Assembly (NCBI GenBank): GCA_964491455.1
Contig: CAZBFM010000001.1
Location: 149,388-213,387, forward strand
From: an uncultured Candidatus Saccharibacteria bacterium
GTDB taxonomy: Bacteria; Patescibacteriota; Minisyncoccia; 2-02-FULL-40-12; GWA2-44-9
Length of the DNA: 64,000 nucleotides
Direction of reading: 5' to 3'
Part shown: piece by piece, positions 46,327 through 61,016 of the stretch
Layout of the letters: each line of letters starts with the position of its first letter
Numbering within the stretch: position 1 is the stretch's first letter
Program-made: the position numbers and the translations under genes
The notes under the pieces: generated by a model
Seen by the model: the letters and a program-made list of their open reading frames with translations, nothing else
The model's database searches: none
Told to the model about the DNA's origin: nothing

Positions 46327-48252
46327 TCACGAGATGCTTCGCGGGTCAATATCCACCAACCATCCATCGGGCAGGTGAGCTAAGAGCTCAGACAAACGAG
46401 CGGAGGGGAGTGTACTCTTGATGATGATTGTGTTTGACCATTTGCCGGCACTTTTTTCGACAAGCGTCGGAGCGGGTCCTAGCAGCTGAGTGCCGCGAGC
46501 TTTTAGATGCGCGATCGCGCGGGTAAGTCGGTCAGCTCCCACTGCTGCGGCACGACTTGATGCGGAGCGGTCACGGTGGCTAAACGTCAGCTTGATGATT
46601 CTTGAGTATGGGGGCCAACGAAGTTGCTTGCGGATAGAGAGTTCATCGGTAAAGTAGTCGCTCCATCGTCGTTGCTCGATATAGGGCGTGAGGCCGTCAT
46701 CCTGGTATGTTTGCAAAATGAGTCGCTCAGGATGAAAATCAGCAAGCTTTTCGAGGGTGAGTACGAGTCGGTCCTGTGCGCGATAGTCAGGATTGGATGT
46801 AAGTAAATCAAGATTAGGAACAATGACCGTTGAGAAATTTCGTACGTAGCGGTAGCTGAGCACCATACTCGTGGCAACCAGAATTGGTTGTAGTAAGGAG
46901 TCCAGCTCGGTGAACGTACGGCTCGCATCATCTGATTCAAGAATGAGATCAGAATCTAGGATGGGGATTTTCGGTTTCGGATATCCATACCGATCAAGGA
47001 GCGTCTGTATCGCCTCTACAAGCTTTTGACTCCCCGGCGAGCCCATCGGTGCCACTGCACCCGCTTTGCAGGTCGGACACTGAGGTGGCACGGATTGGTA
47101 CGCGGCGCATCGATAGCACACCAGCATATTCTCGCTGGTACGATGCCATCGCATGGGAGAAGAGCAGTTTTGGCACTCCACGCTGTGGTGGCATCGACGA
47201 CAACGCGCTGTCATAGCATACCCACGACGAGCAGAGTAGATGAGCAAAGGCTCTGCGCGCTCATAGGCATCGAGAATGGCATGCTCTGCCTGTCGGCTAA
47301 AAAGACCATGATGCCCCGCAGTTTCTTCTTCTTGCGCGCTTGAAATAGTAATCGCAGGCCACGCTGGTTTATCGAGTGTCACGGGTAGCGCCTTGGCTTG
47401 TTGAAGATGAAATTGCACGGTGCTCAGCGCTGATGTGAGCCATGAAATCGTAGCTCCATGCAAGAGGGCAAGATGGCGTGCAGTGTCGGATGCATTCAGT
47501 CGAGGCGTCATGTCGCTTTTGTAGAGTTCATTGAGCGGATCTTCGACAATCACATGACGCAATGATGACCACGGTAAAAATAGGGCATTCCTTGTCCCGA
47601 TCACATTGGTGATGGTTCCATCGAGAACGCCACGATAGATGCGCTTTAATTCAGTCGCTGGAAGTCCGGAGCGCACTAGGGTTGTAGTGGCGGTGATCTT
47701 CCGCTGGAGTGATTCGGCAATGATGCGGTCAGGAACAAGGATGAGAGTTTGACCCGACGATGATGCGTGAATTGCATTGATTCGACGAATGACTCCATCG
47801 GGATTCGTAACCGCGAGGTCGCTTTTCGGAGGTGCGGTACACGCTGGATTTGTATTGAGCGGACTGTGATCGATGGAGGCGCCGCGTTTGCCAATGGAGA
47901 GTGGAGCTATCGTAGTAAGCGCCGTTGCGAGTGAGCACGCATAGTGATTCGATAGCCATCTGGCCAGCTCAATCTGATGATGAGAAAGCTGCGGTGATAG
48001 CGCGACAATCGTCACGATCCGTTTCAATGAGAAGTCGGACTTCTTCACTGACATCTTCGCGCTTCGAATATCACGTGTCTCATGTACGAGTGCGGTGACG
48101 GCTCTGCGACCTATGGACACCCGCACGAGGCTACCTCGGGGAAGCTCATCGTTGCAGAAATAATCAAGCACGCTCGGTGCGTTGGCGGGCAGCTTGATGA
48201 GGGGAGTGACGCTGACGATATACATAACCTCATTGAAGCATATTGTCGTCAA
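46327..48252 (-). CDS. priA: Primosomal protein N' (PriA)-like, with zinc-binding Cys cluster but degenerate Walker A and DExH motifs
   Basis: N-terminal 3'BD-like region. CRRCHHSVECQNCSSPMRWH...CYRCAAYQSVPPQCPTCK is a PriA Cys-rich zinc region. Aligned to E. coli PriA, the GSGKT position reads AVTNPDG and DEEH reads EDPL. Sits in a priA-def-fmt arrangement. Confidence 0.75.
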   Translation of the reverse strand: MTTICFNEVMYIVSVTPLIKLPANAPSVLDYFCNDELPRGSLVRVSIGRRAVTALVHETRDIRSAKMSVKKSDFSLKRIVTIVALSPQLSHHQIELARWLSNHYACSLATALTTIAPLSIGKRGASIDHSPLNTNPACTAPPKSDLAVTNPDGVIRRINAIHASSSGQTLILVPDRIIAESLQRKITATTTLVRSGLPATELKRIYRGVLDGTITNVIGTRNALFLPWSSLRHVIVEDPLNELYKSDMTPRLNASDTARHLALLHGATISWLTSALSTVQFHLQQAKALPVTLDKPAWPAITISSAQEEETAGHHGLFSRQAEHAILDAYERAEPLLIYSARRGYAMTARCRRCHHSVECQNCSSPMRWHRTSENMLVCYRCAAYQSVPPQCPTCKAGAVAPMGSPGSQKLVEAIQTLLDRYGYPKPKIPILDSDLILESDDASRTFTELDSLLQPILVATSMVLSYRYVRNFSTVIVPNLDLLTSNPDYRAQDRLVLTLEKLADFHPERLILQTYQDDGLTPYIEQRRWSDYFTDELSIRKQLRWPPYSRIIKLTFSHRDRSASSRAAAVGADRLTRAIAHLKARGTQLLGPAPTLVEKSAGKWSNTIIIKSTLPSARLSELLAHLPDGWLVDIDPRSIS

Positions 48253-48329
48253 AATGCATCTGCGCGCGGATTGACGAAAACAATGAATTGCGTTATAAGA
48301 TGTTGTTATTTCACAACGAAGGAGTCGCC

Positions 48330-49145
48330 ATGAGTCTGAAAACGTTCATCGAAAAAACGCGAAAACTATCGACGTCAAAGCCAGTTGTCGATAGCCCCAC
48401 GGATCGTGCCGCGAGAGTCCTCGCTCAATTCTTTAGTGGGTACCTCGCACGGTTTGAGGCGGACCCTGCCCTCTTGTGTGAGGGAAGTACGGATTGCCGT
48501 TTTACCGAAAACCTTCTCCCCGCGATTCTGTACGACGGAATCGAGGAGTTGGCGGCATCCGAAGACAAGGAATGTGAACGCCTGAGGTATCTCTATTCAC
48601 TACACCAGCGACTGCCTATTGTGTCATTGGAGGGTCTTGAGGCTACCCATCCAAAGTCCACGAGTCTCGCTCGTTCAAACCTCATTCGAATTATCGAGAG
48701 ATTCGTGGAGGACACTGCAGGGCAAAGCGCTGCAGTGCGCGTTGAGCGCTATATTAATACGCCTCTGTATGCTTTGAGGCACAGTTTCGATGGCTTTCTT
48801 CGAACGGTGTACCGAAAGGGACTCTATGCGCTTGTGCGACAACACGCGCGTGTGTCACGAGAGTCGCGCGGTACATTTGGCCGAACAGCGATTACCACGT
48901 ACGTCGCTGACGGAGAGGTTCGCATTACATTTTCACGCACACCAAATGGACGCAAGGCAAGCGAGCTGCGACTTCTGCGATTTTGCGTATCCGATACTAC
49001 CCGTGGAACGAATACGGAATTCTATGGCTGTGATGTTGATCTGAAAACCGCACTCGCGATGATCGAAGATGTGAGAACGCATTGGCCGTCGGAGGTGCAG
49101 AGGCAGCGTAAGGCCTTCAGGGCACACATCGCCCGATGCGATTGA
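48330..49145 (+). CDS. Hypothetical protein (271 aa)
   Basis: AAGGAG RBS 6 nt upstream of ATG 48330. No family recognised. Confidence 0.5.
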   Translation: MSLKTFIEKTRKLSTSKPVVDSPTDRAARVLAQFFSGYLARFEADPALLCEGSTDCRFTENLLPAILYDGIEELAASEDKECERLRYLYSLHQRLPIVSLEGLEATHPKSTSLARSNLIRIIERFVEDTAGQSAAVRVERYINTPLYALRHSFDGFLRTVYRKGLYALVRQHARVSRESRGTFGRTAITTYVADGEVRITFSRTPNGRKASELRLLRFCVSDTTRGTNTEFYGCDVDLKTALAMIEDVRTHWPSEVQRQRKAFRAHIARCD

Positions 49146-49159
49146 CGCGAAGTAAACAC

Positions 49160-49188
49160 AAGGCTCACTCATGCGGTGAGCCTTTTTT
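49160..49188 (+). terminator. Rho-independent terminator
   Basis: aaggctcac-tcatgcg-gtgagcctt followed by TTTTTT. Confidence 0.8.
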
Positions 49189-49206
49189 CATCCCCGAATA
49201 CCTGAT

Positions 49207-50514
49207 ATGCTTTACTCTATGAACGTAAAAGTACGAATTGCCCCGTCACCAACGGGACATCTGCATATTGGCACTGCTAGAACGGCGCTATTTAATTGGC
49301 TGTTTGCGCGTCATCACGGTGGTGAGTTTATTGTTCGAATCGAAGACACAGATGTCGAGCGCTCAAAGAAGGAATTTGAGCATAATATAGTAAGTGGTTT
49401 GCGCTGGCTCGGTATCGATTGGGATAACACTGAGCTCATTCGTCAATCAGAGCGCTTGCCTGCGTATCGCGCTCGACTCGAAGCGATGCTTGCTAGCGGC
49501 GCTGCAGCATGGCGTACATATTCGGAAGCAGAACAACTCGAGATGACGCAAGCGGGACGAGCTGCGCGCGATAAGGTAATTGTTCTTGTCGATGGGAATG
49601 ATCCCGAGCGTGAGATTGTATTTGACGATATCATCCGTGGCAATGTTTCCGTTCGCTGTAAGCATATCGGCCAAATTGTCCTCGCCAAAGATCTCGACAC
49701 GCCATTGTATAACTTTGCCGTAGTAGTCGATGATATCGATATGGAGATTACGCACGTAATTCGTGGTGAAGATCACATTTCCAATACTCCCAAGCAGCTG
49801 CTGATCTACGAGGCATTGGGTGCGACGGCACCGCATTTCGCGCACCTGCCCCTTATTTTGGGGTCAGATCGAAGTAAGATGTCAAAGCGTGACGGCGCGA
49901 CCAATATGGATGATTATCAAAAGGACTACCTACCCGACGCCCTCGTGTCGTTTATGGGTCAACTTGGGTATACATATGATCAGGAATTGCTGGATAAGGA
50001 TGAAATGGCGATGCAATTTGATCTCTCGAAAGTTCACTCATCAGGTGCAATCTTTGACATCCGAAAATTGCGCTGGACGAATTCGCAGTACATCAAACGG
50101 ATGGCTCCCGATGCCTTTCGTGCTCGTATTGGCATGCCTGAGCTTTCCGATGCTGCCGTTGCTATCATGACGGAACGATTAGAGCAGTTGTCTGATATCG
50201 AACAGTTCTCATATCTTTGGAAGCGACCTGAGTATGAGCCGGAAGTCCTTCTCTGGAAGGAAGATACCCGTCAGACCGCAGTGAGAGCTCTTCAGGCATG
50301 CCTTGAGCTCGCACTGAATAATGAGCTACATCTTGAGCAGCTCGATGCACTTGCTGTGCAATCCTTCGACGCAAAGAAAGGGAGTGTCTATTGGCCTCTT
50401 CGAACATCGCTCTCCGGGCTGCGAAATAGCGCTGCTCCTCTTGATATCGCAAATGCACTTGGACGAGATGAAACTATCAAGCGAATTGAGTTTGCGATTG
50501 CCATGCTCTCATGA
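49207..50514 (+). CDS. gltX: Glutamyl-tRNA synthetase
   Basis: RIAPSPTGHLHIGTARTALFNWLFAR (HIGH) and KMSKRDG (KMSKS). The start may be the ATG at 49219. Confidence 0.9.
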   Translation: MLYSMNVKVRIAPSPTGHLHIGTARTALFNWLFARHHGGEFIVRIEDTDVERSKKEFEHNIVSGLRWLGIDWDNTELIRQSERLPAYRARLEAMLASGAAAWRTYSEAEQLEMTQAGRAARDKVIVLVDGNDPEREIVFDDIIRGNVSVRCKHIGQIVLAKDLDTPLYNFAVVVDDIDMEITHVIRGEDHISNTPKQLLIYEALGATAPHFAHLPLILGSDRSKMSKRDGATNMDDYQKDYLPDALVSFMGQLGYTYDQELLDKDEMAMQFDLSKVHSSGAIFDIRKLRWTNSQYIKRMAPDAFRARIGMPELSDAAVAIMTERLEQLSDIEQFSYLWKRPEYEPEVLLWKEDTRQTAVRALQACLELALNNELHLEQLDALAVQSFDAKKGSVYWPLRTSLSGLRNSAAPLDIANALGRDETIKRIEFAIAMLS

Positions 50515-51767
50515 AACGTTTCGCATTTCTTTTAACGTTCCTAACGGTTGTTTGTTTGATTGGTGAAAGTGTCATTCACGCGCAAACGACCGATGAGTTG
50601 CGCATGGCGGAGTTGCAATTTCAAATCGATACGCTCGAGCGTGAGGCATCAGCGAAGCGCGCGATTATTGCCACCACTCATGAACAGCAAGACTCGCTCA
50701 AGAAAGCTATTGCATTGATACAGAATCAAATTGCCGCGGTGCAGTCCGAACTTTCAGCGACTGCTGCGAAAATCGATAAGACAAAAATCCAGATATCATC
50801 GGTTGAGCAAGCAATCATTGATAAGCGCGCTGAAATGACTCGCAAGCGTGAGACCATTGGGAGGATGGTGTTCTACTTGGATAGGACGGATCAGGATAGC
50901 GTTATTGCAAATCTCTTTAAATACGAAAATCTTTCTGAGTTCGTTGCGCAGGTGCATGATCTTGGTCGCGTGCAAAATGAAATCATGAATGCTATCAAGG
51001 ATATCAAAGACGCGAAGGAATCGCTTCAGCAAGATAAAAGCGATCTCGAGGCGCAACAAAACAAGTTACAACAATTAAGTGATGAAGCATACCAACGAGC
51101 CAATCAACTCGCTGGTGCGAAGGGCGAAAAAGCTCGTGTGCTTACCGTCACGAAAGGCCAAGAAGCAACATACCAAAAGCAGTTAGCGCAAATTGAAGAG
51201 CAAAAATCTGCGTACTTTATGCAGCTACGCGAGCTTGAATTAAAGGTGGTTTCCGGCGGGCTCTACATCGTGCATATTACGGCTAGCTCCGTCCCCGCCA
51301 AGGGTACAAAACTATTTACGGCACCAGAGGACCGTGCATATATCACGCAGGGTTATGGCTGTACGAAGTATGCTCGTTGCAATAACAAGCGAGGGCCGTA
51401 CGGTGGCGCCCCGCATAATGGCGTCGATTATGCCGCTGGCTATGGAAGTCCCATCAAAGCAATTGGCGCAGGAAAGATTGTGGCCAATGGACTCAACAAT
51501 AGTGGCTGGGGCAATTGGATTGCGATTCAACACACGAATAATATGGTTTCATTGTACGGGCACATGAGCTCGTTTGCGGGGCTGTCTGTTGGGGCAACTG
51601 TTGAGGGAGGTCAAGTCATTGGCTATGAAGGACGCACTGGCGCAGCAACCGGATCGCATCTGCATCTTTCGTTGTACAAGGACTTCTTTACGTATATTAA
51701 AGATGCCAATGGTCAGCTCAACTTCAATTACTTCGATGGCACGCTCAATCCTCTCAACTACATGTAG
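50511..51767 (+). CDS. M23-family peptidoglycan metalloendopeptidase with N-terminal signal/TM and long coiled-coil (EnvC-like)
   Basis: HNGVDYAAGYGSPIKAIGAGKIV and GSHLHLSLY are M23 motifs (HxxxD, HxH). The N-terminal 250 aa are coiled coil. Confidence 0.8.
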   Translation: MKRFAFLLTFLTVVCLIGESVIHAQTTDELRMAELQFQIDTLEREASAKRAIIATTHEQQDSLKKAIALIQNQIAAVQSELSATAAKIDKTKIQISSVEQAIIDKRAEMTRKRETIGRMVFYLDRTDQDSVIANLFKYENLSEFVAQVHDLGRVQNEIMNAIKDIKDAKESLQQDKSDLEAQQNKLQQLSDEAYQRANQLAGAKGEKARVLTVTKGQEATYQKQLAQIEEQKSAYFMQLRELELKVVSGGLYIVHITASSVPAKGTKLFTAPEDRAYITQGYGCTKYARCNNKRGPYGGAPHNGVDYAAGYGSPIKAIGAGKIVANGLNNSGWGNWIAIQHTNNMVSLYGHMSSFAGLSVGATVEGGQVIGYEGRTGAATGSHLHLSLYKDFFTYIKDANGQLNFNYFDGTLNPLNYM

Positions 51768-51785
51768 CAATTGAGATTTGTGTAA

Positions 51786-51812
51786 GAAAAAAGGGGAGCG
51801 ATGCTCCCCTTT
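51786..51812. terminator. Bidirectional terminator hairpin
   Basis: aaaaaa-ggggagc-gatg-ctcccct followed by ttgtg. Confidence 0.6.
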
Positions 51813-51821
51813 GTGCACGCA

Positions 51822-52085
51822 TCAGTCTACTTGGTCCTGCGGTACAGGTTGCGGCAAGATCAGAAACGACTGCTGAAGCTGCGCTCTGCCATTAATGTCA
51901 CGCATCTCGTCGTTGACGCCAGCAATCGTGCAAGCAACTGTGATTTCAACTTTGGCACTGAGTTGATGTTCGGCGAGCTGCTCAACGATTCGTGTAGCCA
52001 TGGTGCGGACAATATGATCCAACTCCTTCGCCGCCACGCTTACAGACTGGAGCGCGATTCCGTTACTATCAACATTTTGTTTCAT
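51822..52085 (-). CDS. Hypothetical small protein (87 aa)
   Basis: ORF with balanced composition, MKQNVDSNGIALQSVSVAAKELDHIVRTMATRIVEQL.... A terminator lies downstream on the minus strand. Confidence 0.35.
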   Translation of the reverse strand: MKQNVDSNGIALQSVSVAAKELDHIVRTMATRIVEQLAEHQLSAKVEITVACTIAGVNDEMRDINGRAQLQQSFLILPQPVPQDQVD

Positions 52086-52434
52086 ACATACCCCAAGCTT
52101 GATTTACCAGCGAATGCCGTCAGAGTCAAGAATAGGGGAGGCGCACACTAAAAACACGATACGTGAATTAATGACAAGCACGCGACAAAAAACGTTCCGC
52201 GAGTTGTTTCAAAAATGGCTGAACGTTTCGATGAATATTCAAAAAAGCTGAAAATAGTAATTGATAAAAACTTGTATTCGAATTTGCTTCGTTGCGTCGA
52301 TCTCGAAGAGTGACGGACAATCCTTGAGTGACACGAGAGAGGACGTGGATCGCTACGTGATTCATGTATGAGCGCGTGAGATTACGCGTATAAATATAAA
52401 AACCGATAAGATGGCAACCGCTCATTTTTGAGCA

Positions 52435-52462
52435 TTAACAGGGGATTTGTCGTGGTTATAAT
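52435..52462 (+). promoter_or_regulatory. Sigma70-like promoter upstream of the nuclease pair
   Basis: TTAACA (52435..52440), 16 nt, TATAAT (52457..52462). Confidence 0.4.
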
Positions 52463-52609
52463 GACGCATAATCCACATTGTACGACAGATCAAATCAGTT
52501 CGACATGGCAGTCCCCTGTAGCGCAAGGGCCGCATGGACACAGATGCATCCCATGCATAAAGTCCCCACGCGTCTTGCCCTTCTAGTATGGTATGGGTAC
52601 ACTTCCCTC

Positions 52610-53281
52610 ATGTCGCGCGTCGTTATAGATATTGAAACTGTCGGCGTTGAGTTTACATCGCTCGACGCGCAAGCCCAAGAATACTTGCTCAAGCACGCTT
52701 TAACACCAGAACAAAAAGATGCGGTTCCGGAGACACTGAGCTTCTCTCCATTGACTGGTCAGATTGTAGCGATCGCCATTCTCAATCCTGACACAAAGAA
52801 GGGCGCTGTGTATTATCAGGCGCCTAATAGCGCGCCTAGTGAATTCGAAGAAGACGGTATTCTGTATGCATCGGGCTCTGAGGCAGATATCCTTGAGAAG
52901 TTTTGGCGTGCCATAGGATTTTACGAACAGGTCGTTACGTTTAATGGCCGCTCATTCGATGGGCCATATCTCATGGTACGATCTGCGGTTAACAAAGTGA
53001 GACCAACGAAGAATCTTGTCCCGTATCGCTATGGTGATGATCATATCGATCTATTCGATAGACTGGGCTTCTTTGGTGCAGTGCGGCGGACGATGAGTTT
53101 GCATATGTGGTGTCAGGCGTTCGGAATTCGATCCAGTAAATCGGGCGCCATTAATGGATACGAGGTTCCACGATACTTCAAGGAAGGTAAATATATCGAT
53201 ATTGCGCGCTACTGTTTTGATGATATACGTGCCACTGCGGAGTTGTTTGAGTATTGGAATACCTATATCAATATTCGTTAG
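52610..53281 (+). CDS. DEDDy-type 3'-5' exonuclease (RNase H-like fold, PolB-exonuclease-related/YprB-like); may start earlier at ATG 52505
   Basis: Exo I VVIDIETVGV (D-x-E), Exo II VVTFNGRSFDGPYL, Exo III YCFDDIRATAEL (Y-x3-D). Confidence 0.7.
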   Translation: MSRVVIDIETVGVEFTSLDAQAQEYLLKHALTPEQKDAVPETLSFSPLTGQIVAIAILNPDTKKGAVYYQAPNSAPSEFEEDGILYASGSEADILEKFWRAIGFYEQVVTFNGRSFDGPYLMVRSAVNKVRPTKNLVPYRYGDDHIDLFDRLGFFGAVRRTMSLHMWCQAFGIRSSKSGAINGYEVPRYFKEGKYIDIARYCFDDIRATAELFEYWNTYINIR

Positions 53282-53282
53282 C

Positions 53283-54038
53283 ATGGAGTACGACTCCGTC
53301 GAGACATTTCGGGAGCGTGCTGGGTATACGATTCAGGGTGTCTGGTATCCTCGAGTCACCGCGATCTTGTCAATTAAAGCCAAGCCCGCACTTTTACGCT
53401 ATTACGGGGGCATGAGAAGCTTTAAGGCTGCTGATGATGCAAAGGAAGCGAGCGCTCGCGAAGGTACGATGGTTCATGAAGCAGTTGCGGCTATTGCGGC
53501 TGGACGGCATGATGTGATCGTTGACCCGCTCGTGCGACCATCAGTCGATGCATTTCATGAATTCTTGCGAAATAACAATGTCGAACCGATTCTCATCGAA
53601 GAGCGCGTTATTCACCAGCAGTATGGATATGCAGGTACTGTAGATATGGTCGCAAGAATCAATGGAACCGTCGGTGTGCTTGATATCAAAACAGGAAAAC
53701 GGATGTACCGCGATTACGGCATTCAAACTGCCGCCTACGTACAGGCCGTTGCGCAAAGGTCAGATGTGCCTACTCCTACAACGAGTTGGGTGTTACGGTT
53801 GGACCAGTGCCGAACCTGTGTCCTTTGTGGGGTCACGCTACGCACAAAGGGTGGTATGTTCCGGGTCAGTGCAGGAGGCAAGGGCTGCACGCATAGCTGG
53901 CTTCCTATGCAAGGCATTTTTGAATTTGAAGAGATGCATGATGCTGCAAATAACTTTAAAGCCTTTCTCGCTTCAAAGGAATTATGGCAGTGGGAGCATC
54001 AAGCGTATATCCGTCAGCTCACTGCGGAGCTACGGTAG
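53283..54038 (+). CDS. PD-(D/E)XK nuclease of the Cas4/RecB-like family with a C-terminal Cys cluster
   Basis: GTVDMVARINGTVGVLDIKTGK (D...D/ExK), IQTAAY (QxxxY), then CRTCVLCG...GC (C-x2-C-x2-C-x24-C). The ATG at 53283 directly follows the TAG of the upstream exonuclease. Confidence 0.7.
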   Translation: MEYDSVETFRERAGYTIQGVWYPRVTAILSIKAKPALLRYYGGMRSFKAADDAKEASAREGTMVHEAVAAIAAGRHDVIVDPLVRPSVDAFHEFLRNNNVEPILIEERVIHQQYGYAGTVDMVARINGTVGVLDIKTGKRMYRDYGIQTAAYVQAVAQRSDVPTPTTSWVLRLDQCRTCVLCGVTLRTKGGMFRVSAGGKGCTHSWLPMQGIFEFEEMHDAANNFKAFLASKELWQWEHQAYIRQLTAELR

Positions 54039-54413
54039 GCAGTTGCCTGCAAGTGTATAGCCAGCACGAAGTGCGTCTTGTTCTGAGGGAAGCCATACGC
54101 GGTTAGTCTCCTTTATACGCTTGCCACTGGCACACCAGCTATAGTGATACTTTTTACTCGAAGAGTTTCTTGAAGTCACTACGCGCGTATCGCTCTTATT
54201 AACCGTGGTTCGCTCCCCTATTGTCGGCGTCTGCGAAACAATTGATTCACGCGTATGAAGAAGCGCAGAGGACTGCGCGGGTTGTACACCCCGCCGCGCC
54301 TCAATAAGTCCAATATTGTACGCTGACCAGCCAATACAGAGCATAATAAAAGCCCGCCAAAGCAGCTCTTTGTGGTGTTTGACGAAGTCCCCTATTCTTG
54401 CTATGATAGCCAT
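54030..54413 (-). CDS. Membrane-anchored protein with Ada-like zinc-binding (Ada_Zn_binding-type) C-terminal domain
   Basis: N-terminal TM (LWRAFIMLCIGWSAYNIGLI). The C-terminus KKYHYSWCASGKRIKETNRVWLPSEQDALRAGYTLAGNC resembles the Ada N-terminal metal-binding fold (YH..C....I....RVWF.S.EEA...GY..C). Confidence 0.5.
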   Translation of the reverse strand: MAIIARIGDFVKHHKELLWRAFIMLCIGWSAYNIGLIEARRGVQPAQSSALLHTRESIVSQTPTIGERTTVNKSDTRVVTSRNSSSKKYHYSWCASGKRIKETNRVWLPSEQDALRAGYTLAGNCLP

Positions 54414-54477
54414 ACGTGTAAGTGCGACATCCCCGTGATTACACTGTTTTACCAGAATAATTTAACTACGCCAATCC

Positions 54478-54753
54478 ATGGCACATACCAAAGCTATAGG
54501 CTCTACGCAGCTAGGACGAGATAGTCGCCCTCAGTATCGTGGAGTCAAAATTCATGATGGTCAGAAGGTCATAATCGGGAATATCATCGTGCGCCAAACC
54601 GGAAGTTCAATGGTTGCTGGTGATGGCGTCCGAACGGGATCTGATTATACGCTCTACGCAATTCGAGATGGTGTCGTGCGTTTTTCGACGAAGAACAAAC
54701 AGTCATTTAATGGCTCTCGAAGAGTTATTAAGGAAGTATCAGTCGAAGCATAA
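54478..54753 (+). CDS. rpmA: Ribosomal protein L27
   Basis: MAHTKAIGSTQLGRDSRPQYRGVK...GNIIVRQTGSSMVAG. Confidence 0.9.
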   Translation: MAHTKAIGSTQLGRDSRPQYRGVKIHDGQKVIIGNIIVRQTGSSMVAGDGVRTGSDYTLYAIRDGVVRFSTKNKQSFNGSRRVIKEVSVEA

Positions 54754-54782
54754 AAAACGCCCCACATGGGGCGTTTTTTTTA
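54752..54782. terminator. Bidirectional rho-independent terminator (rpmA/rplI)
   Basis: aaaaaa-cgccccacatggggcg-tttttttt. Confidence 0.8.
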
Positions 54783-55229
54783 TTCTGCTGCAGTGATTTC
54801 GAGCATGATGTGCGCAACCAGATGCTCGCCGAGTCTCACATTAATTGTGTGCAAGCCGATCTTTTTTAGCTGATCATCAGCTTCGATGGAGGAAGCTGAG
54901 ATACGCGCACCTGCTACAATACTGATTCGTTGCGCTAATTCGTCTTTCGAAATACTAGAAAATAAAGTTCCCTTCGCACTTGCTTTGGCGGGAATTGATA
55001 TTGTAACTGAAGAAAGTTTTGTGAGGAGCTGTTGTGCTTCAGCTTCGGCCAGTTGCGATGCTTGAAGCTTTTGAGTCCTTATGAGCTCGGATTCCTTTAG
55101 CGAATGAGTCGTCGCCGGCTTCCCTAGTTTTCGTGGGATCAGATAGTTCCTCGCGTATCCGTCATTGACGTCTTTAATATCCCCTACCCGTCCGATGCCT
55201 TTGATGTTGGTTAGGAGTACGACTTTCAT
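54780..55229 (-). CDS. rplI: Ribosomal protein L9
   Basis: MKVVLLTNIKGIGRVGDIKDVNDGYARNYLIPRKLG. Confidence 0.9.
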   Translation of the reverse strand: MKVVLLTNIKGIGRVGDIKDVNDGYARNYLIPRKLGKPATTHSLKESELIRTQKLQASQLAEAEAQQLLTKLSSVTISIPAKASAKGTLFSSISKDELAQRISIVAGARISASSIEADDQLKKIGLHTINVRLGEHLVAHIMLEITAAE

Positions 55230-55240
55230 AGTGCGATATC

Positions 55241-56481
55241 CTACCGCGTTTTGTTTACGACTTCAATGGCCTTGTCGAGCTGAGGGTCCTTGCCAACCAT
55301 GCCGAACTGCCAGCCCTTCTCTTTGTATTCTGCGGGTGTCATAGGTACGACCACCGTCGGCTCAATCCCCATTTTTGATATATTTACACCATTCGGAGTG
55401 TACCATTTCGCAATCGTGACTTTGAGGGATGAGCCATTATAGAATTCCTCGACTTGCTGAACGGACCCTTTCCCAAATGATTTTTCGCCAACTAAATCTA
55501 TCTTACGAACATCGTGAAGCGCACCGGCTAATATTTCAGCCGCGGAGGCGGAGCCGCCATTCATAAGTAGCACAGTCGGCATCGTGGCTAGCTTGCTATT
55601 ACCGCTGGTGCGCATCTCGTCTATGGTGCCATTACTGAAGTGCTCACTTACTACAACGCTGCCACTCTTGAGGAGCCAGCCCGCAATATTAACAGCAGAA
55701 TCCAAAAGGCCACCTGGATTATTGCGAACATCTATAATCAAGCGCTCCGCTCCGGCCTCACTTAGTTCTTTTGCGGCACGAACGAATTCTTCATCAACAT
55801 TGGCATTGAATGAAGTGATCTGCATGTACGCTATTTTGTTGTCTAGCATTCGCCACTCGACGGCATGTATCTTGATGGTGTCTCGGATAATATCGAATGT
55901 TAACTTATCGTCTGCTCCCTCACGAAGTATCGTCAGGACAACATGCGTTCCCTGCTTTCCACGAATAAGATTAACGGCTTCCTCAACGGTAAGATGCTCT
56001 GTGTCAGTAGCATCCACTTTGATGACTACGTCACCCGACACAATGCCTGCCTTCATTGCTGGGGAGTCCTTCAATGGTGATATAACGGTGATCAGATTGT
56101 CTCTCATGCCAATTTCCATTCCGACACCTGAAAAAGCACCAGAAACTTGTTCTTGAAATTTTTTGCTCGTTACCGGCTCAAAGAACACCGTATACGGATC
56201 CCCAGCGGATTGAACCATCCCCGAAATCGCTCCGTATACCAACTTTTGCGTTTCTAAGGAGTCTTTATCGACAAAGCGAGCATGCAACTTGTCCCAGACC
56301 TGCCAAAAAAGATTGAAGTCAACCGCGTCGCTTTTTCCTTGATCCTTATTGATAACCTGCTTGATAATAGCGTCTACTGAAGCGGTATTCTGTTTCTGAA
56401 AGTATGCATACCCAGCTCCATAACCAATCCCTAGAGCAATGAGTATCGAAAAAATAAAGATGAATCTATTTGGGGTTTTCA
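55241..56481 (-). CDS. ctpA: Carboxyl-terminal processing protease (S41, PDZ-containing)
   Basis: N-terminal TM, a PDZ region (GIVSGDVVIKVD) and an S41 core (LIIDVRNNPGGLLDSAV...). Start taken at MKTPNRF. Confidence 0.85.
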
Positions 56482-56499
56482 TGATGGATTTAGTTTCTG

Positions 56500-57327
56500 C
56501 TACATCGTTGCGCTCTGACCCGGGCGTAACCCCGAGGTTCCGTGTTTCCGAAAATAATGAAGTGCGTCTTTCAGGTGCCATCTCGTTTGTTGTCTAAAAA
56601 GAATATCAAGAATGCCAAACCGTCCCTTTGATTCACGCTGATGATAATGATACATCTTTGCCGAAGGGAGATATGTGACGGACAGACCATTTTCCCAGAA
56701 GCGATGTGCCCAGTCAACTTCGCTCAAATACAAAAAGAATGATTCGTCCATCATGCCAACGCGTTCGAGAGATGTGCGACTAACCATTAACGCGGAGCCC
56801 ATAACCCAATCGACGTCACACGTTTCGGTTAAATCGCGTGAGCGGAGCAAAAAAGCATCAAGTAATCGTGACGAGCCTGGTAGTGGCAGTCTCCGAGAGA
56901 TCATGATCGCGGGCGTATAAAATGAGAAGCATGAATCTTGGCGCGTGGAGTCAATATTGAGAAGCCCGGGCCCGAGCAGACCAGTAGACGGATGCTCTGA
57001 TAGAAACTGGATCATGGTGGCAAGGGACCCAGGGAGAATAATTACATCTGGATTCAGAATGAGGAGAAATTCTCCCGACGCACGGCGGAGGCCCTCATTG
57101 ACACCCCGTGTATACCCGATATTTTCAGCGAATGGAGCACACGTTAGCGCATCAAAGGTTGCTCGAAAGTCATGTGTTGCAATAGTACGCGTTTCAGGGG
57201 TTGACTCTGAATCAATAATAATTACTTCATGTCGTAGCTGAGCAGGTAGTGCGCGTCGAAGTGAGGTGAGCGATAGTCGAAGAAGCGCTGGGTTCCGGAA
57301 ATTTACAATAATTACCGACAGCTTCAT
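56500..57327 (-). CDS. Family 2 glycosyltransferase
   Basis: MKLSVIIVNFRNPALLRLSL...EVIIIDSES...ILNPDVII is GT-A with a DxD-like motif. Confidence 0.8.
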   Translation of the reverse strand: MKLSVIIVNFRNPALLRLSLTSLRRALPAQLRHEVIIIDSESTPETRTIATHDFRATFDALTCAPFAENIGYTRGVNEGLRRASGEFLLILNPDVIILPGSLATMIQFLSEHPSTGLLGPGLLNIDSTRQDSCFSFYTPAIMISRRLPLPGSSRLLDAFLLRSRDLTETCDVDWVMGSALMVSRTSLERVGMMDESFFLYLSEVDWAHRFWENGLSVTYLPSAKMYHYHQRESKGRFGILDILFRQQTRWHLKDALHYFRKHGTSGLRPGQSATM

Positions 57328-58418
57328 GGCATTGTTGTGGGGAGTAGCGTAGCTGCTGATGGAGATGCAGGCAGGATGTCCGGCGTTGGAAGAAGCGGCT
57401 GCGCGCCCGTAATGGACACTATAAAATCCTTAATGTGCTTGAGTGTGGCATCGCGTGGTAGTAACTCGTACACTCCATTCACTTTCGTTTCATAGAGCAC
57501 ATTTTCAGTAGTTAACTGATAGCGTCGAATGGTAGCTAATTTCTTCTGCTGCAACAAAATGTCCTTGATTGTGCCAAGATCAAATATATTTAAATCCGTG
57601 TTGATGTGTTTTCTAATTTCTGTAATCAACGAAAGCGCTTTGATTGGTTCATCAAGAAGCGATAGCGAGGTGGCTTTATCCTTGATTGCCATAAGAACTT
57701 GCATCTGCCGACGGGACCGATCAAAATCGCTAGAGGAATAGCGACTTCGACTATAATACAATGCTTGCTGACCATTTAAATTATTCTTACCAGCAGGAAG
57801 TGAGAATGGGAATCCCCATTGCTGTGACTCCTGAAACGGCTTATCCAACGTTACCGTGATGCCACCCAGCGTATCGACAACAGATACAAACGCGTCAAAA
57901 TCGGCAACGACAATGTTGTCTATTCCAACGCCGAGTATTCGACTATACATCTTCTTTGTCTCGGAGACACCGTAGTGGGCGTACAGCGTATTAATCTTTC
58001 CGACACGATCATCTGTAATGCGTATGGTAAGATCGCGTGGTATAGATACGAGCGATGCACGACCGGAGGATTTATCGATAGACAGTAGTAGAACTGTGTC
58101 CGTTAAGAGTCCCCCATTTTCGACATCTTCCTTGCCTCGGATACCTAGAATGAGCACATCCAATCTGTCATTCGAATTTGTCGGCAGTGCATACTCGGGG
58201 TCATCCGCAATAGAGAGTTGCTTACCCGATTTGTCGTCATTCGAAATTGTATCTGAGATACGATTCACGATGAGCAGCGTCGCGTTGCCAAGCCTACTCA
58301 ATGCGGCGCGTCCAGCAAGCATGACCAATAAAAATAATACGAGCCAAAGGATTCGTTTTGACCAAGGAGTGCGCGATGGCGTGGTTGATGCGTAATCGAT
58401 CATCATGTATGAAACCAA
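57324..58418 (-). CDS. LytR-CpsA-Psr (LCP) family cell-wall glycopolymer transferase
   Basis: N-terminal TM. LCP core LDVLILGIRGKE...TDTVLLLSIDKSSGRASLVSIPRDL...INTLYA. Confidence 0.8.
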   Translation of the reverse strand: MVSYMMIDYASTTPSRTPWSKRILWLVLFLLVMLAGRAALSRLGNATLLIVNRISDTISNDDKSGKQLSIADDPEYALPTNSNDRLDVLILGIRGKEDVENGGLLTDTVLLLSIDKSSGRASLVSIPRDLTIRITDDRVGKINTLYAHYGVSETKKMYSRILGVGIDNIVVADFDAFVSVVDTLGGITVTLDKPFQESQQWGFPFSLPAGKNNLNGQQALYYSRSRYSSSDFDRSRRQMQVLMAIKDKATSLSLLDEPIKALSLITEIRKHINTDLNIFDLGTIKDILLQQKKLATIRRYQLTTENVLYETKVNGVYELLPRDATLKHIKDFIVSITGAQPLLPTPDILPASPSAATLLPTTMP

Positions 58419-59443
58419 GAGTATAAGGCGTCCGCGCTCACTGTCGCACGGCCCTGTACTTCTTTCCGTTGCGAAATCATTCTCGGCAGAAGTCGAATGA
58501 ACCTCGGTAATTCGAGTAACACCGCTGGTTCGAAGAGGATGGTGTACAGCAACACCCCCATTTCGCGTAGTAGGATGTACGGCGCATCTCGCAGAAAGTT
58601 TATAATATACTCATTTTTAATGATTGTAAACCTCGTATTTGACCAATCAAGCCGCCGCTTCTGAAGAGGAATGCGAGAACGAATCGATCTACGGCGAACA
58701 TGATCTATGATTGGTACTTTGGCAGCTCCCTTCGTCGTTGATCTATCGTGCCAGGCAATGGCGGTAGGTTCAAATACTTGCCGAAATCCAAATAGTGTCA
58801 TGCGCCAGGCTAGATCGAGATCGTCGCCGTACCAAAAGTAATCAATATCCCAAATCCGCTTTCCTACGCGACACGATTGAAGGGCGGATCTGCGGAAAAA
58901 TGGCACAGCACCTTCGACCCCAAAGATATCACACGCGTGTTGAAGTGCCTGCGAATCAGATTGTCCATGTCCAATATTCACCACAGTGCGAGCTCGTGAG
59001 AGTGAAAACCCACACGTATCAATGACGAGCTTTGGCAGAGCTCCCCGTGTGCTATTCAGCAAGTCATCTACGGTATACTGGAAGAGCTTTCCTTGGATTG
59101 CTCCGATGGAAGGGTCTTGCATGCTACTACGGACGCACTGTGCCACGAAATCGTCGGCGATGATAACATCCACAGACAGTGCGCATACAAACTCACTGGA
59201 TGTGAGTGATAAGAGAAGTTCCTGCCCAGGCCACATTCCGTGGTTGGTATTGCTTTGTATGAGGTGTGCGCCAGGATACTCATGCGCTACGATCGCTGCA
59301 GTTGTGTCCGTTGAAGCATTGTCGAGAACGTAAAGTTCAATGGGGCGGTGCGTTTGGCGAAGCACAGCATCAAGACATCGGCGAATGTATCGCTCACCAT
59401 TTCGAACGACGACTTGTATAACCACGGAATTAGGCGTGCTCAT
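58403..59443 (-). CDS. Family 2 glycosyltransferase
   Basis: VVIQVVVRNGERYIRRCLDAVLRQTHRPIELYVLDNASTD is a GT2 N-terminal signature. Confidence 0.8.
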   Translation of the reverse strand: MSTPNSVVIQVVVRNGERYIRRCLDAVLRQTHRPIELYVLDNASTDTTAAIVAHEYPGAHLIQSNTNHGMWPGQELLLSLTSSEFVCALSVDVIIADDFVAQCVRSSMQDPSIGAIQGKLFQYTVDDLLNSTRGALPKLVIDTCGFSLSRARTVVNIGHGQSDSQALQHACDIFGVEGAVPFFRRSALQSCRVGKRIWDIDYFWYGDDLDLAWRMTLFGFRQVFEPTAIAWHDRSTTKGAAKVPIIDHVRRRSIRSRIPLQKRRLDWSNTRFTIIKNEYIINFLRDAPYILLREMGVLLYTILFEPAVLLELPRFIRLLPRMISQRKEVQGRATVSADALYSWFHT

Positions 59444-61016
59444 TGAGTGATTGCGACCAAATAATCGCTAGTGTTGAAGCGAAGAGAAGATACACTCGCT
59501 CGTCGAATAATATAGGATCTGTAAGGACGTATGCATAGATCCATGGCAGATACAGGAGTAAGCTGCCGGAGTATAGTATCGATATGCCGCTCGATACCCG
59601 AAACCAACGCCATGCCGCGTAGAGTGAATTGCCAAAGAGCGCGATAGTAATAAGGGCAGCAGCGATTCCCATCTCAGCGGCGACATGTAAATACAGGTTA
59701 TGAGCCGTAGAGCCGGCTTTTGCAAGGGTTATATTTTGATGCAATATAACCGGAAAATTTCCGATTCCTATACCCAGGAGAGGGTGGCTGTATATTGATT
59801 CGAGTGTCGATTTCCAGATGACGATTCGAAGCGCGTTGGATGTTTCACCAAAATCAAGCGTGCTACTGAGACGTCGGCCAAATAGATTGAGATCGCTTTT
59901 GCCGACAAGAAATTGTGGTGATGTAAAAATGGGCCACGCCACAAAAAACAATAAAAAGAACGTAGCAAGAAATGACGCGCCATATGCGAACATCCTTCGT
60001 CGTAGGACGTCGATGCGATGAATTGCGAATGCGTAACGATACAATGGCAACAAGGCGACGACGCCAACCGCTGATAACCATATGCCACGAGTACCTGATG
60101 CAATAACTGCAAGAAACGATATCGGCACAGCGACAATCCACAGCGATGCATAGGTTCGATAGAGCTGGAGCAATCGTGACCGCTGAGCGGCGATGAGAAT
60201 TGGTCGAGCACCAACAGCGAGAAGCGCTGGCATACCAAGGAGGACAAATGTTGGGAACGAGTGTGAGTCTGGAAACAACGAAAACATCCGGAGAGAGAGT
60301 TGGTCACCGTAATATGCAAGCCATGTGTTGCCGATGTGAACAGCAATGTAGGACCATTGGGCTCCAAAGAGTCGAGCCTCGATCCCTTCGCCCCAGAATC
60401 TCATGAATGCATAGACGTCGATAAGGTATGTAGAAAGTAACTGTGCGAATCCGACTATAACAACGAGGATGACTGGTTTGATGATTGACCAAATCACGCG
60501 TTCGTTCGTAATCCGCTCTTGACGCAGCAGAGCGTAGAGCACATACGGAACTATGGTTAGGTTGCTAAAGTAGATTATGCGCTTTATCCCCTCAATGGGG
60601 TGACTTGAAACCGTCAATGAAAGCAGCGCGAGACAGAGGAGTGCGAACATCATGCATCCGATTGGTCGCTCCTTCGCCCAGCGAAGCGGTGTGGCAAGTA
60701 GTGAACGTAGGGATGCGAGGATATGCTCGTGCTGATCTCGCACAAGGAAGAAGCGGGCTCCAATAATAATGGCGAGTGGACGCCACATGGTGAGATTGTC
60801 ATATGAGGTAGTAAGCGGCAATGCAATGAGGAGCGGAATTGATTCGACGAAAAAGAGTACGCCATCCTCGATGGGACGAGTTACACACCAGAGCGCAGCA
60901 ATTGCAAACATCATAAGTATGAAAAAACGAGGCAACGCACCTGCTACAACTAAGAGAGAAATAACAGTATAGAATGCGTAGAACTCACGAGCGTCGGGAA
61001 GTCGTAGAAATTTCAT
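59430..61016 (-). CDS. Polytopic membrane protein, Wzy/O-antigen-polymerase-like
   Basis: 528 aa, at least 12 TM helices, inside the glycosyltransferase cluster. Confidence 0.55.
   Translation of the reverse strand: MKFLRLPDAREFYAFYTVISLLVVAGALPRFFILMMFAIAALWCVTRPIEDGVLFFVESIPLLIALPLTTSYDNLTMWRPLAIIIGARFFLVRDQHEHILASLRSLLATPLRWAKERPIGCMMFALLCLALLSLTVSSHPIEGIKRIIYFSNLTIVPYVLYALLRQERITNERVIWSIIKPVILVVIVGFAQLLSTYLIDVYAFMRFWGEGIEARLFGAQWSYIAVHIGNTWLAYYGDQLSLRMFSLFPDSHSFPTFVLLGMPALLAVGARPILIAAQRSRLLQLYRTYASLWIVAVPISFLAVIASGTRGIWLSAVGVVALLPLYRYAFAIHRIDVLRRRMFAYGASFLATFFLLFFVAWPIFTSPQFLVGKSDLNLFGRRLSSTLDFGETSNALRIVIWKSTLESIYSHPLLGIGIGNFPVILHQNITLAKAGSTAHNLYLHVAAEMGIAAALITIALFGNSLYAAWRWFRVSSGISILYSGSLLLYLPWIYAYVLTDPILFDERVYLLFASTLAIIWSQSLNEHA

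What the first reader, a model, noticed from the sequence alone, without database searches (positions are those of the whole stretch)
52086..54413. Tandem DEDDy exonuclease and Cas4/RecB-like Cys-cluster nuclease behind a long noncoding leader: candidate uncharacterised DNA-processing or defence module
Two nuclease genes are translationally coupled: the TAG of the first is directly followed by the ATG of the second. The first (52610..53281) has all three DEDDy exonuclease motifs of the PolB-exo-related (YprB-like) family. The second (53283..54038) has a PD-(D/E)XK core with VLDIKTGK, a QxxxY motif and a CxxCxxC...C cluster, as in Cas4/AddB-type nucleases that bind FeS or Zn. No CRISPR array, cas1/cas2, helicase or recombinase accompanies them. 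They sit behind the longest noncoding stretch of the window and have their own predicted promoter. A convergent gene encoding a membrane protein with an Ada-like zinc-binding domain ends inside the 3' end of the second nuclease gene. The combination of a 3'-5' exonuclease with a Cas4-like nuclease suggests a DNA end-processing, anti-phage or mobile-element-derived function that I cannot assign to a named system.
Basis: partly seen in the sequence, partly recalled or inferred. Interest (0 to 1): 0.65.

Follow-up and report, generated by a model that had tools for sequence, protein, structure and literature searches.

The report
Conserved nuclease gene pair in Paceibacteria
Two adjacent DNA-cutting enzyme genes are real, but they are conserved chromosomal genome-maintenance genes of a tiny-genome (CPR) bacterium, one resembling the human mitochondrial nuclease MGME1, and not an anti-phage defence or CRISPR-type module.

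Summary
Gene 52610-53281 encodes a PolB-exonuclease-type DEDDy 3'-5' exonuclease (PF10108). Gene 53283-54038 encodes a PD-(D/E)XK nuclease. One base separates the stop from the next start.

Nothing points to defence or mobility. The nuclease sits in the block gltX-M23-...-nuc-L27-L9-ctp in about 80 Paceibacteria species. Its divergence tracks that of GltX and L9, and viral contigs hold no close relative. The exonuclease is its tight upstream neighbour only in the nearest clade (20 of 81 loci). Elsewhere murC or other genes take that place, and the exonuclease also occurs alone outside CPR.

Most likely these are core DNA end- or flap-processing enzymes, co-expressed in this lineage.

The "leader" holds a single-copy, orientation-fixed 28-bp imperfect palindrome. 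It heads the nuclease's transcription unit in about 62-65 of 81 genomes. Its role (operator, Xer-like site or RNA) is unresolved.

Interest is moderate to low.

The parts
52610..53281 (+). exo: 223-aa stand-alone DEDDy 3'-5' exonuclease of the PolB-exonuclease-like family (PF10108/PF13482)
   Evidence: Pfam. Invariant D7, E9, N112, D117, Y201 and D205. AF2 model pLDDT 90. Best PDB matches are the exonuclease domains of Pol epsilon and archaeal PolB, E 6e-10. Start codon conserved.
53283..54038 (+). nuc: 251-aa RecB-type PD-(D/E)XK nuclease, MGME1-like, with a C-terminal CxxC...CxH (putative Zn-ribbon) insert
52461..52488 (+). Element E: conserved single-copy 28-bp imperfect palindrome (ATGACGCATAA-TCCACA-TTGTACGACAG). 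Family consensus is GTCG[CT]A[ACT]AA-N6-TT[GT]T[AG]CGAC.
   Evidence: Exact 20-mer occurs once in the window, 0 expected. It is found upstream of exo in 8 genome loci and 11 metagenome contigs. Relaxed forms occur in 62-65 of 81 genome loci, always upstream of nuc and on the same strand. One copy per locus in 850 kb. No Rfam match.
52435..52462 (+). Promoter-like -35 TTAACA / -10 TATAAT, directly abutting element E
   Evidence: 11 of 12 matches. A -10-like TAnnAT box is weakly conserved at -6..-1 relative to E in 62 loci. Function inferred.
52512..52516 (+). C-rich box (TCCCC) about 25 nt downstream of E, weakly conserved
   Evidence: Information peak at +51..+53 in 62 aligned loci. Present in most loci. 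Meaning unknown.
52086..52609 (.). Noncoding leader between the doubtful ORF p87 and exo
   Evidence: ORFs inside it show no codon-position bias of substitutions against L002. Apart from E it is not conserved in more distant relatives.
54030..54413 (-). Convergent 127-aa membrane-anchored protein with a sunset/Ada-like C-terminal motif. Syntenic neighbour, not shown to belong functionally.
   Evidence: Detected in this position in more than half of the 81 loci.
51790..51812 (.). Strong hairpin terminator (10 bp stem, T-run) after the M23 peptidase gene. It bounds the unit upstream.

Best explanation
These are two chromosomal genome-maintenance nucleases of a Paceibacteria (Patescibacteria/CPR) bacterium.

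**Shown**
- exo has the fold and the complete catalytic DEDDy set of a family-B polymerase proofreading domain.
- nuc has the fold and all five RecB-type motifs of MGME1-like single-strand-DNA exonucleases. It also carries a conserved CxxC...CxH insert.
- nuc is a vertically inherited, strongly conserved gene in a housekeeping neighbourhood.
- In this lineage exo and nuc are separated by 1 nt. They lie behind a promoter-like site that overlaps a conserved 28-bp palindrome.

**Inferred**
- The two genes are co-transcribed and translationally coupled.
- nuc threads free single-stranded DNA ends or flaps into its two-metal active site and degrades them, as MGME1, Dna2 and RecE do.
- exo trims 3' tails or mismatched 3' termini.
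- Together they convert flaps, gaps or broken ends into ligatable or recombinogenic ends, or clear linear DNA, during replication and repair in a reduced genome.
- The insert binds zinc and serves structure or DNA binding.
- The palindrome most likely controls expression of the nuc transcription unit.
For: - **Family assignments.**
- **Motif conservation.**. The mapping onto MGME1 motifs Ia, I, II, III and IV uses the alignment and PMC6237815.
- **Core, vertical nature of nuc.**
  - More than 1,500 homologs were found. All that carry a source name are Patescibacteria.
  - 195 relatives were found in the species-representative genomes. The 80 loci kept carry the order gltX-M23-...-nuc-sun-L27-L9-ctp in most of them.
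  - Identity to the window's nuc correlates with identity of GltX (rho 0.81), L9 (0.82), ctp (0.75) and L27 (0.72).
  - nuc is about as conserved as GltX.
- **Coupling.** The exo-nuc gap is -4 to +11 nt in about 21 of 27 adjacent loci.
- **No defence context.**
  - PADLOC gives only weak generic PD-(D/E)XK hits.
  - Neighbours are housekeeping genes.
  - There is no CRISPR array.
  - Among 2.9 M viral contigs only relatives of 39% identity or less were found, and never both genes together.
- **Regulatory element.** Element E heads the nuc-containing unit in 62-65 of 81 loci, whether the next gene is nuc, exo or murC.
Against: - No activity, substrate or physical interaction has been tested.
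- The functional link between exo and nuc rests on adjacency in one clade only: 20 of 81 loci, plus 3 where exo lies nearby on the other strand.
- That adjacency is no better conserved than that of functionally unrelated neighbours.
- A 55%-identical exo occurs without nuc in a non-CPR context.
- The pairing does not recur in viruses.
- Identity to MGME1 is only 16-19%, so substrate preference cannot be transferred safely.
- Zinc binding is inferred from residue conservation alone.
- In four related loci a convergent gene separates E from nuc, yet E persists. This does not fit a simple operator.
Confidence: 0.6

Rival explanations
1. The two enzymes work independently. nuc is a core stand-alone nuclease. 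exo (the COG3298 type, widespread in bacteria) merely lies next to it in this clade because gene order in the block is conserved. There is no joint pathway.
For: - exo is absent from the nuc neighbourhood in about 58 of 81 loci. There murC, a pyridine-nucleotide oxidoreductase, an AMP-binding enzyme or an integrase precedes nuc.
- An exo ortholog stands alone beside POR/ferredoxin and a sigma-54 activator.
- Viral contigs show no co-occurrence.
- No fusion proteins appear among the best 120 or 150 hits.
Against: - Spacing of 0-11 nt or overlap is maintained across species whose nuc is only about 48% identical to the window's.
- exo stays in the same neighbourhood even when it has moved to the other strand (L056, L062, L064).
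Confidence: 0.28
2. One reading: an anti-phage defence or mobile-element-derived Cas4-like plus DEDD module.
For: - Weak PADLOC matches to Cas4, DruK and DEDDh models, E 7e-6 to 0.04.
- Distant phage homologs are annotated 'Cas4 family exonuclease'.
- Gene content between M23 and nuc varies. It includes an integrase in L044 and a LAGLIDADG gene in L097.
Against: - Cas4 curated cut-off not reached: 24 against 65 bits.
- Structural top hit is MGME1 by a wide margin.
- Cas4 Cys pattern absent.
- No CRISPR or cas genes.
- Conserved housekeeping synteny and vertical divergence.
- No close viral relatives.
Confidence: 0.05
3. Concerning element E only: it is a Xer-type (dif-like) site-specific recombination site with two similar arms, not an operator. 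nuc is simply its conserved neighbour.
For: - It has 11-6-11 architecture with asymmetric arms. Sequence is invariant in otherwise unconserved DNA. Orientation is fixed and there is one copy per locus.
- Its inner left arm and centre resemble published dif sites. CGCATAAT is shared with E. coli dif, and ATAATCTACATT is shared with actinobacterial dif sites.
- It persists where a convergent gene separates it from nuc.
- A XerC/D-like integrase lies 78 nt downstream of it in L044.
- Top-strand GC3 skew falls from +0.16 to about 0 near 48-54 kb in this genome.
Against: - A dif weight matrix built from 33 published sites does not pick E. No site in the window exceeds chance.
- There is no sign flip of GC3 skew across E in 51 loci: means +0.051 left and +0.046 right, p 0.72.
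- The window holds no integrase, and only 1 of 81 loci has one nearby.
- A -10-like box abuts E, and E always points toward the nuc unit.
Confidence: 0.15

Closest known systems
MGME1 (mitochondrial genome maintenance exonuclease 1, human; PDB 5ZYU, 5ZYT, 8XA9)
   Different: Identity is 16-19%. The window protein is bacterial, not mitochondrial. It has an extra C-terminal CxxC...CxH insert and a WEWE helix that MGME1 lacks. Its activity, substrate polarity and oligomeric state are untested. It is a structural relative, not a demonstrable ortholog.
Cas4 (TIGR00372 / PF01930) and the AddB/RecB nuclease domains
   Different: It scores below the curated Cas4 cut-off (24 against 65 bits). It lacks the N-terminal Cys and the C-terminal CxxCx5C of the 4Fe-4S 'staple'. 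It has no cas1/cas2/CRISPR context and no helicase domains.
Phage 'exonuclease' or 'Cas4 family exonuclease' proteins (PHROG 298, for example in Flavobacterium phage vB_FspM_immuto and in Curtobacterium and Arthrobacter phages)
   Same: Closest named sequence family over the catalytic core: phrog_298 E 2.5e-30, residues 14-174. They lie in phage replication and nucleotide-metabolism modules, for example next to the DnaG primase.
   Different: Identity is only 25-37%. The C-terminal Zn-ribbon region is mostly not covered. The window's family is chromosomal and syntenic, not viral.
[quoted passage not shown]
   Same: exo is a member: Pfam score above threshold, DEDDy motifs present, fold matches the Pol epsilon and archaeal PolB exonuclease domains.
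   Different: The family itself has no experimentally defined role. This clade is the one that sits next to the MGME1-like gene.
Mitochondrial MGME1 plus POLG 3'-5' exonuclease (linear mtDNA degradation and flap processing; PMC5928156, seen by title and abstract only)
   Same: By analogy only: an MGME1-type nuclease working with a polymerase-type 3'-5' exonuclease on DNA ends.
   Different: Here the exonuclease is a free-standing family-B type, not part of a polymerase. No evidence shows that the two proteins cooperate.
Bacterial dif/Xer sites (E. coli, B. subtilis and Frankia seeds; Kono et al. 2011, PMC3025954), for element E
   Same: 28 bp, arms of about 11 bp around a 6-bp centre, shared inner-arm and centre bases, single copy.
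   Different: The right arm differs from the conserved XerD arm. E is not recovered by a dif weight matrix. No clear GC-skew switch occurs at the site.

Membership tests
PolB-exonuclease-like DEDDy 3'-5' exonuclease (PF10108/COG3298) | Profile match above the curated threshold | tested here: met
   PF10108 63.1 bits against a cut-off of 24. PF13482 40.2 bits against 22.
PolB-exonuclease-like DEDDy 3'-5' exonuclease (PF10108/COG3298) | Exo I (DxE), Exo II (NxxxFD) and Exo III (YxxxD) acidic and Tyr residues | tested here: met
   D7, E9, N112, D117, Y201 and D205 are invariant in 48 sequences.
PolB-exonuclease-like DEDDy 3'-5' exonuclease (PF10108/COG3298) | RNase H-like fold of family-B polymerase exonuclease domains | tested here: met
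   AF2 pLDDT 90. Foldseek best hits are the exonuclease domains of Pol epsilon and archaeal PolB, E 6e-10, TM 0.6.
PolB-exonuclease-like DEDDy 3'-5' exonuclease (PF10108/COG3298) | 3'-5' exonuclease activity | not testable with these tools
   Needs biochemistry.
RecB-type PD-(D/E)XK nuclease, MGME1-like | Motifs Ia (His), I (Glu), II (Asp), III (D-x-K) and IV (QhxxY), as defined for MGME1, RecB and AddA (PMC6237815) | tested here: met
   H65, E106, D121, D134/K136 and Q148/Y152 are invariant or near-invariant. They align to MGME1 H180, E223, D238, D251/K253 and QvvaY.
RecB-type PD-(D/E)XK nuclease, MGME1-like | MGME1 is the nearest solved structure | tested here: met
RecB-type PD-(D/E)XK nuclease, MGME1-like | Orthology with eukaryotic MGME1 (mitochondrial protein, high sequence conservation) | tested here: not met
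   Identity is 16-19%. The organism is bacterial, and the protein has an extra Zn-ribbon insert. It is filed as 'works like', not 'is' MGME1.
RecB-type PD-(D/E)XK nuclease, MGME1-like | ssDNA or flap exonuclease activity that needs a free end | not testable with these tools
   Needs biochemistry.
Cas4 | Match to the Cas4 equivalog model above its cut-off | tested here: not met
   TIGR00372 24.2 bits against a cut-off of 65.
Cas4 | Four-Cys cluster: one N-terminal Cys plus C-terminal CxxCx5C (definition from my own knowledge of SSO0001 and AddB) | tested here: not met
   No Cys before residue 176. The conserved ligands are C179, C182, C202 and H204.
Cas4 | Association with cas1/cas2 and a CRISPR array | tested here: not met
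   Neighbours are gltX, M23, rpmA, rplI and ctp. There are no repeat arrays.
Anti-phage defence system (PADLOC catalogue) | Significant match to a defence-system protein model, with partner genes nearby | tested here: not met
   Only weak generic hits, best E 7e-6 to Cas4. No partner genes. The locus is syntenic housekeeping DNA.
Xer/dif recombination site (for element E) | 28-bp site with two arms around a 6-bp centre, and more than four complementary pairs between positions 7-12 and 17-22 (criterion of Kono et al.) | tested here: inconclusive
   The architecture fits. The window copy has 4 pairs and the family consensus has 5 (my count on the sequences).
Xer/dif recombination site (for element E) | Recognised by a profile of known dif sites | tested here: not met
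   A weight matrix from 33 published sites does not rank E. The top window score, 5.9, is within the range of shuffles. The matrix is dominated by Actinobacteria.
Xer/dif recombination site (for element E) | Position at the GC-skew switch (replication terminus) | tested here: inconclusive
   GC3 skew falls from +0.16 to about 0 near the site in this genome, but no clear negative arm appears within 18 kb. There is no left-right difference in 51 loci of +/-6 kb.

The most novel reading that the evidence does not exclude
Paceibacteria, and perhaps wider CPR lineages, rely on a lineage-specific MGME1-like zinc-ribbon nuclease as a core DNA end- or flap-processing enzyme. In one clade it is coupled to a free-standing family-B-type proofreading exonuclease. 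This would be a bacterial counterpart of the mitochondrial MGME1/POLG-exonuclease arrangement. Its gene would be governed by, or anchored next to, a previously undescribed 28-bp single-copy palindromic site. That site could be the clade's chromosome-dimer-resolution (dif-like) site or a dedicated operator.
Probability: 0.2. Interest if true: 0.6.

Novelty: new member of a known kind. Interest (0 to 1): 0.35.

Why it matters
DNA replication and repair in CPR/Patescibacteria have barely been studied experimentally, and their genomes are strongly reduced. This nuclease is as conserved as glutamyl-tRNA synthetase and fixed in one of the most stable gene blocks of the class. It is therefore a good candidate for an unrecognised core genome-maintenance activity. 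It also extends the MGME1-like branch of RecB-type nucleases to bacteria and adds a new zinc-ribbon insert.

The conserved 28-bp element gives a concrete, testable handle on either gene regulation or chromosome resolution in these organisms.

For the scan itself, the result removes a false defence-system lead.

Tried and rejected
1. **Cas4/AddB identity.** Rejected on the curated score, the Cys pattern and the structural ranking.
2. **Defence island or mobile element.** Rejected on synteny, vertical divergence and the lack of close viral relatives.
3. **A known RNA in the leader.** Rfam at gathering and at permissive E-values found nothing, in the window and in six related loci. ARAGORN found no tRNA or tmRNA there.
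4. **Hidden protein genes in the leader.** The 85-aa (-) and 50/52-aa (+) ORFs show no third-position bias of substitutions against L002. The invariant 20-mer varies only at a second codon position.
5. **Element E as an RNA hairpin.**
   - The consensus fold has no convincing covariation.
   - About 27 of 62 copies carry an A x G mismatch at one stem position.
   - A -10-like box would place the transcription start inside the left arm.
   - Not excluded, but not favoured.
6. **E as a LexA, NrdR, Fur/Zur, DnaA or parS box.** Compared from memory only. Half-site or spacing mismatches were seen. The Patescibacteria LexA motif paper (PMID 28618189) is not held, so LexA could not be checked.
7. **E as a regulon-wide operator.** No second copy occurs in 64 kb plus 850 kb.
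8. **E as canonical dif.** See the rival explanation.
9. **Walking along the 88-kb contig to extend the skew analysis.** Blocked, because only window-encoded proteins can be looked up. Only 7 kb were gained.
10. **afdb50 fold search.** The library was unavailable.
Full report
**What is there**

The region holds two same-strand ORFs, 52610-53281 and 53283-54038. TAG, one C and then ATG separate them. The short start of the first gene is the right one for three reasons:
- Homologs are about 223 aa and cover the query fully.
- An ATG sits at the equivalent position in 19 of 20 related loci.
- A 1-nt indel against the nearest relative breaks the longer upstream frame.

The window comes from a Patescibacteria (Paceibacteria) metagenome-assembled genome. 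The same proteins are on an 88-kb Logan contig and a 652.7-kb NCBI contig. The nearest named relatives are Candidatus Paceibacterota and Yanofskybacteria.

**First protein (exo)**

[quoted passage not shown] It also gives PF13482.
- In 48 homologs the DEDDy set is invariant: D7-x-E9, N112..F116-D117 and Y201-x3-D205.
- The AlphaFold model (pLDDT 90) superposes best on the exonuclease domains of yeast and human Pol epsilon and of archaeal family-B polymerases (E 6e-10).

**Second protein (nuc)**

- It matches PF12705 just above threshold. It matches the Cas4 equivalog model far below its cut-off, 24 against 65 bits.
- The strongest named hit is PHROG 298, "exonuclease" (E 2.5e-30).
- A profile of 23 homologs searched against all PDB sequences finds only human MGME1 (E 2.6e-6).
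- That alignment places H65, E106, D121, D134-x-K136 and Q148-x3-Y152 on the five motifs (Ia, I, II, III, IV) that define MGME1 and RecB-type nucleases (PMC6237815). All are invariant or nearly so.
- The model (pLDDT 92) ranks MGME1 first by Foldseek: E 5e-9, with the next family at 1e-3.
- The "CxxCxxC...C" cluster is only partly conserved. C176 is lineage-specific. C179, C182, C202 and H204 are conserved, and they sit in a beta-hairpin insert after the QxxxY motif.
- No N-terminal cysteine is present, so the Cas4/AddB iron-sulfur "staple" pattern is absent.
- I read the insert as a zinc-ribbon. This is an inference.

**Context**

A pattern scan of one genome per species returned 195 relatives, and the best 80 loci were kept.
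- In most of them nuc lies in the order gltX - M23 peptidase - (variable) - nuc - small membrane protein - rpmA - rplI - ctp. This holds across Yanofsky-, Wolfe-, Jorgensen-, Lipton- and other "-bacteria".
- Identity of nuc to the window's copy falls in step with GltX (Spearman 0.81), L9 (0.82), Ctp (0.75) and L27 (0.72).
- nuc stays about as conserved as GltX.
- This is the signature of a vertically inherited core gene, not of a defence island.
- PADLOC gives only weak generic hits.
- There is no CRISPR array.
- Among 2.9 million viral contigs only distant relatives exist, and none of the 34 viral loci carries both genes.
- An exhaustive profile search finds 37 clusters at E <= 1e-30, of which only about a dozen are full-length. 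It finds about 3,900 at E <= 1e-10, and the listed hits below about 1e-50 mostly match only the catalytic core.
- The zinc-ribbon form is therefore a compact, clade-restricted family inside a large phage and bacterial superfamily.

**Is it a pair?**

- exo lies directly upstream of nuc in the 20 closest genome loci. It lies nearby on the opposite strand in 3 more.
- Where the genes are adjacent, the gap is -4 to +11 nt in about 21 of 27 loci. Co-expression is therefore maintained down to about 48% nuc identity.
- In the other loci nuc is preceded by murC, a pyridine-nucleotide oxidoreductase, an AMP-binding enzyme, an integrase (L044) or small ORFs.
- A 55%-identical exo stands alone in a non-CPR context, beside POR/ferredoxin and a sigma-54 activator.
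- The link is thus plausible but lineage-restricted. It is no stronger than the synteny of unrelated neighbours.

**The leader**

The 524-nt stretch contains no credible gene. Its ORFs show no codon-position bias of substitutions against L002, whereas gltX, M23, exo, nuc and the membrane protein all do. The upstream 87-aa "gene" is itself doubtful (5 synonymous to 7 non-synonymous changes).

The leader does contain an invariant 20-24-mer, here called element E.
- It lies at 52463-52486, or 52461-52488 as a 28-mer. The exact sequence occurs once in the window, with none expected.
- It recurs upstream of exo in 8 genome loci and 11 metagenome contigs.
- Relaxed to GTCG[CT]A[ACT]AA-N6-TT[GT]T[AG]CGAC, it is present in 62-65 of 81 loci. 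It is always upstream of nuc on the same strand, 73 to about 2,700 nt away.
- The next gene after E can be nuc itself, exo or murC.
- It is single-copy in 850 kb of loci and in the 64-kb window.
- Its two arms are consistently asymmetric, and its 6-nt centre varies.
- A weak -10-like box abuts it. Here this is TATAAT at 52457-52462, with TTAACA 16 nt upstream.
- A C-rich box follows about 25 nt downstream.
- No Rfam family matches.

Three readings of E remain open.
- **Operator or promoter element of the nuc unit.** This fits E's position and orientation. It fits less well in four loci where a convergent gene separates E from nuc and E still persists.
- **Xer/dif-like site.**
  - For: the 11-6-11 architecture, and bases shared with published dif sites.
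  - Against: a dif weight matrix does not pick E.
  - Skew in this genome: top-strand GC3 skew drops from +0.16 to about 0 around 48-54 kb.
  - Skew across genomes: 51 loci show no left-right flip.
- **RNA hairpin.** There is no convincing covariation, and an A x G mismatch recurs in the stem.

I favour the operator reading but cannot settle the question.

**Mechanism proposed**

Shown: the folds, the catalytic residues, the conservation and the gene arrangement.

Inferred:
- nuc degrades free single-stranded DNA ends or flaps by two-metal catalysis, like MGME1, Dna2 and RecE.
- exo trims 3' ends.
- In this lineage both are made from one transcript and act on the same intermediates in replication and repair.

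The mitochondrial pairing of MGME1 with the POLG exonuclease is an analogy, not evidence.

**Verdict**

The finding is real but ordinary in kind. It consists of two members of known nuclease superfamilies that public annotation already labels generically: "ribonuclease H-like domain-containing protein" and "PD-(D/E)XK nuclease family protein". The defence and Cas4 interpretations are not supported. Three points remain of interest:
- The MGME1-like nuclease appears to be a core gene of a CPR class.
- It carries an undescribed zinc-ribbon insert.
- The conserved 28-bp element is still unexplained.

Noticed in passing
window 52461-52488 (and L002-L081): A single-copy, orientation-fixed 28-bp imperfect palindrome (element E) is conserved in about 62-65 of 81 Paceibacteria loci, upstream of the nuc transcription unit. 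A -10-like box precedes it and a C-rich box follows it. It is not in Rfam. Operator, Xer-like site and RNA readings remain unresolved.
   Followed up: partly
L097 4388-4960; L098 476-1050: A free-standing LAGLIDADG homing-endonuclease gene (166 aa, minus strand) is inserted immediately after element E. On its far side lies a partial E-like left arm (GTCGCACAA...). This suggests that E, or its surroundings, can serve as a homing target.
   Followed up: no
L044 4924-5982: In one genome a XerC/D-type tyrosine recombinase gene (Phage_integrase plus SAM-like N-terminal domains) lies 78 nt downstream of a degenerate copy of E and directly upstream of nuc. No other locus, nor the window, has an integrase nearby.
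   Followed up: partly
window 51822-52085 (-) and 52168-52425 (-): The called 87-aa gene shows 5 synonymous to 7 non-synonymous codon changes against its 95%-identical relative, and no third-position bias. The 85-aa ORF shows 1 to 5. Both are probably not genes, or evolve very fast. The noncoding stretch may therefore be about 840 nt (51768-52609).
   Followed up: partly
window 49207-54413 against L002: DNA identity to the nearest relative steps down at the exo/nuc boundary. gltX, M23, the leader and exo are 94-97% identical. nuc and the convergent membrane-protein gene are about 86%. Downstream, protein identities are mosaic: L27 99%, L9 78% and Ctp 97%. This suggests homologous recombination tracts between strains.
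   Followed up: no
window about 48000-64000 and L101 1-7016 (7 kb beyond the window's right end): Top-strand GC3 skew is +0.15 to +0.18 for genes on either strand up to about 48 kb. It then falls to about 0 for at least 18 kb. The S13-S11-S4-rpoA-L17-L13-S9 operon beyond the window points back toward this region, so the area may be a replication termination zone.
   Followed up: partly
window 54030-54413 (-): The convergent 127-aa membrane-anchored protein ends in a motif (YHYSWC...N..W..S...A...GY....C) that gives repeated sub-threshold matches to the NCBIfam 'sunset' domain in 6 of 8 orthologs. NCBIfam also lists that domain as a C-terminal variant on ribosomal proteins L17, L20 and S2. The gene is syntenic with nuc in more than half of the 81 loci.
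   Followed up: partly
L095 1594-2274; L096 1241-1921: An exo ortholog 55% identical to the window's protein occurs alone. It sits beside pyruvate:ferredoxin oxidoreductase genes and a sigma-54-dependent response regulator, so it probably lies outside CPR. This clade of PF10108 exonucleases is thus unusually well conserved across phyla.
   Followed up: no
L008 4829-5326 (-), L009 4744-5349 (-): In some relatives a small gene lies on the opposite strand between E and exo. It encodes a protein with a signal peptide and a conserved WCPxxExEWGDGE motif. The E-exo spacer is therefore a site of gene insertion.
   Followed up: no
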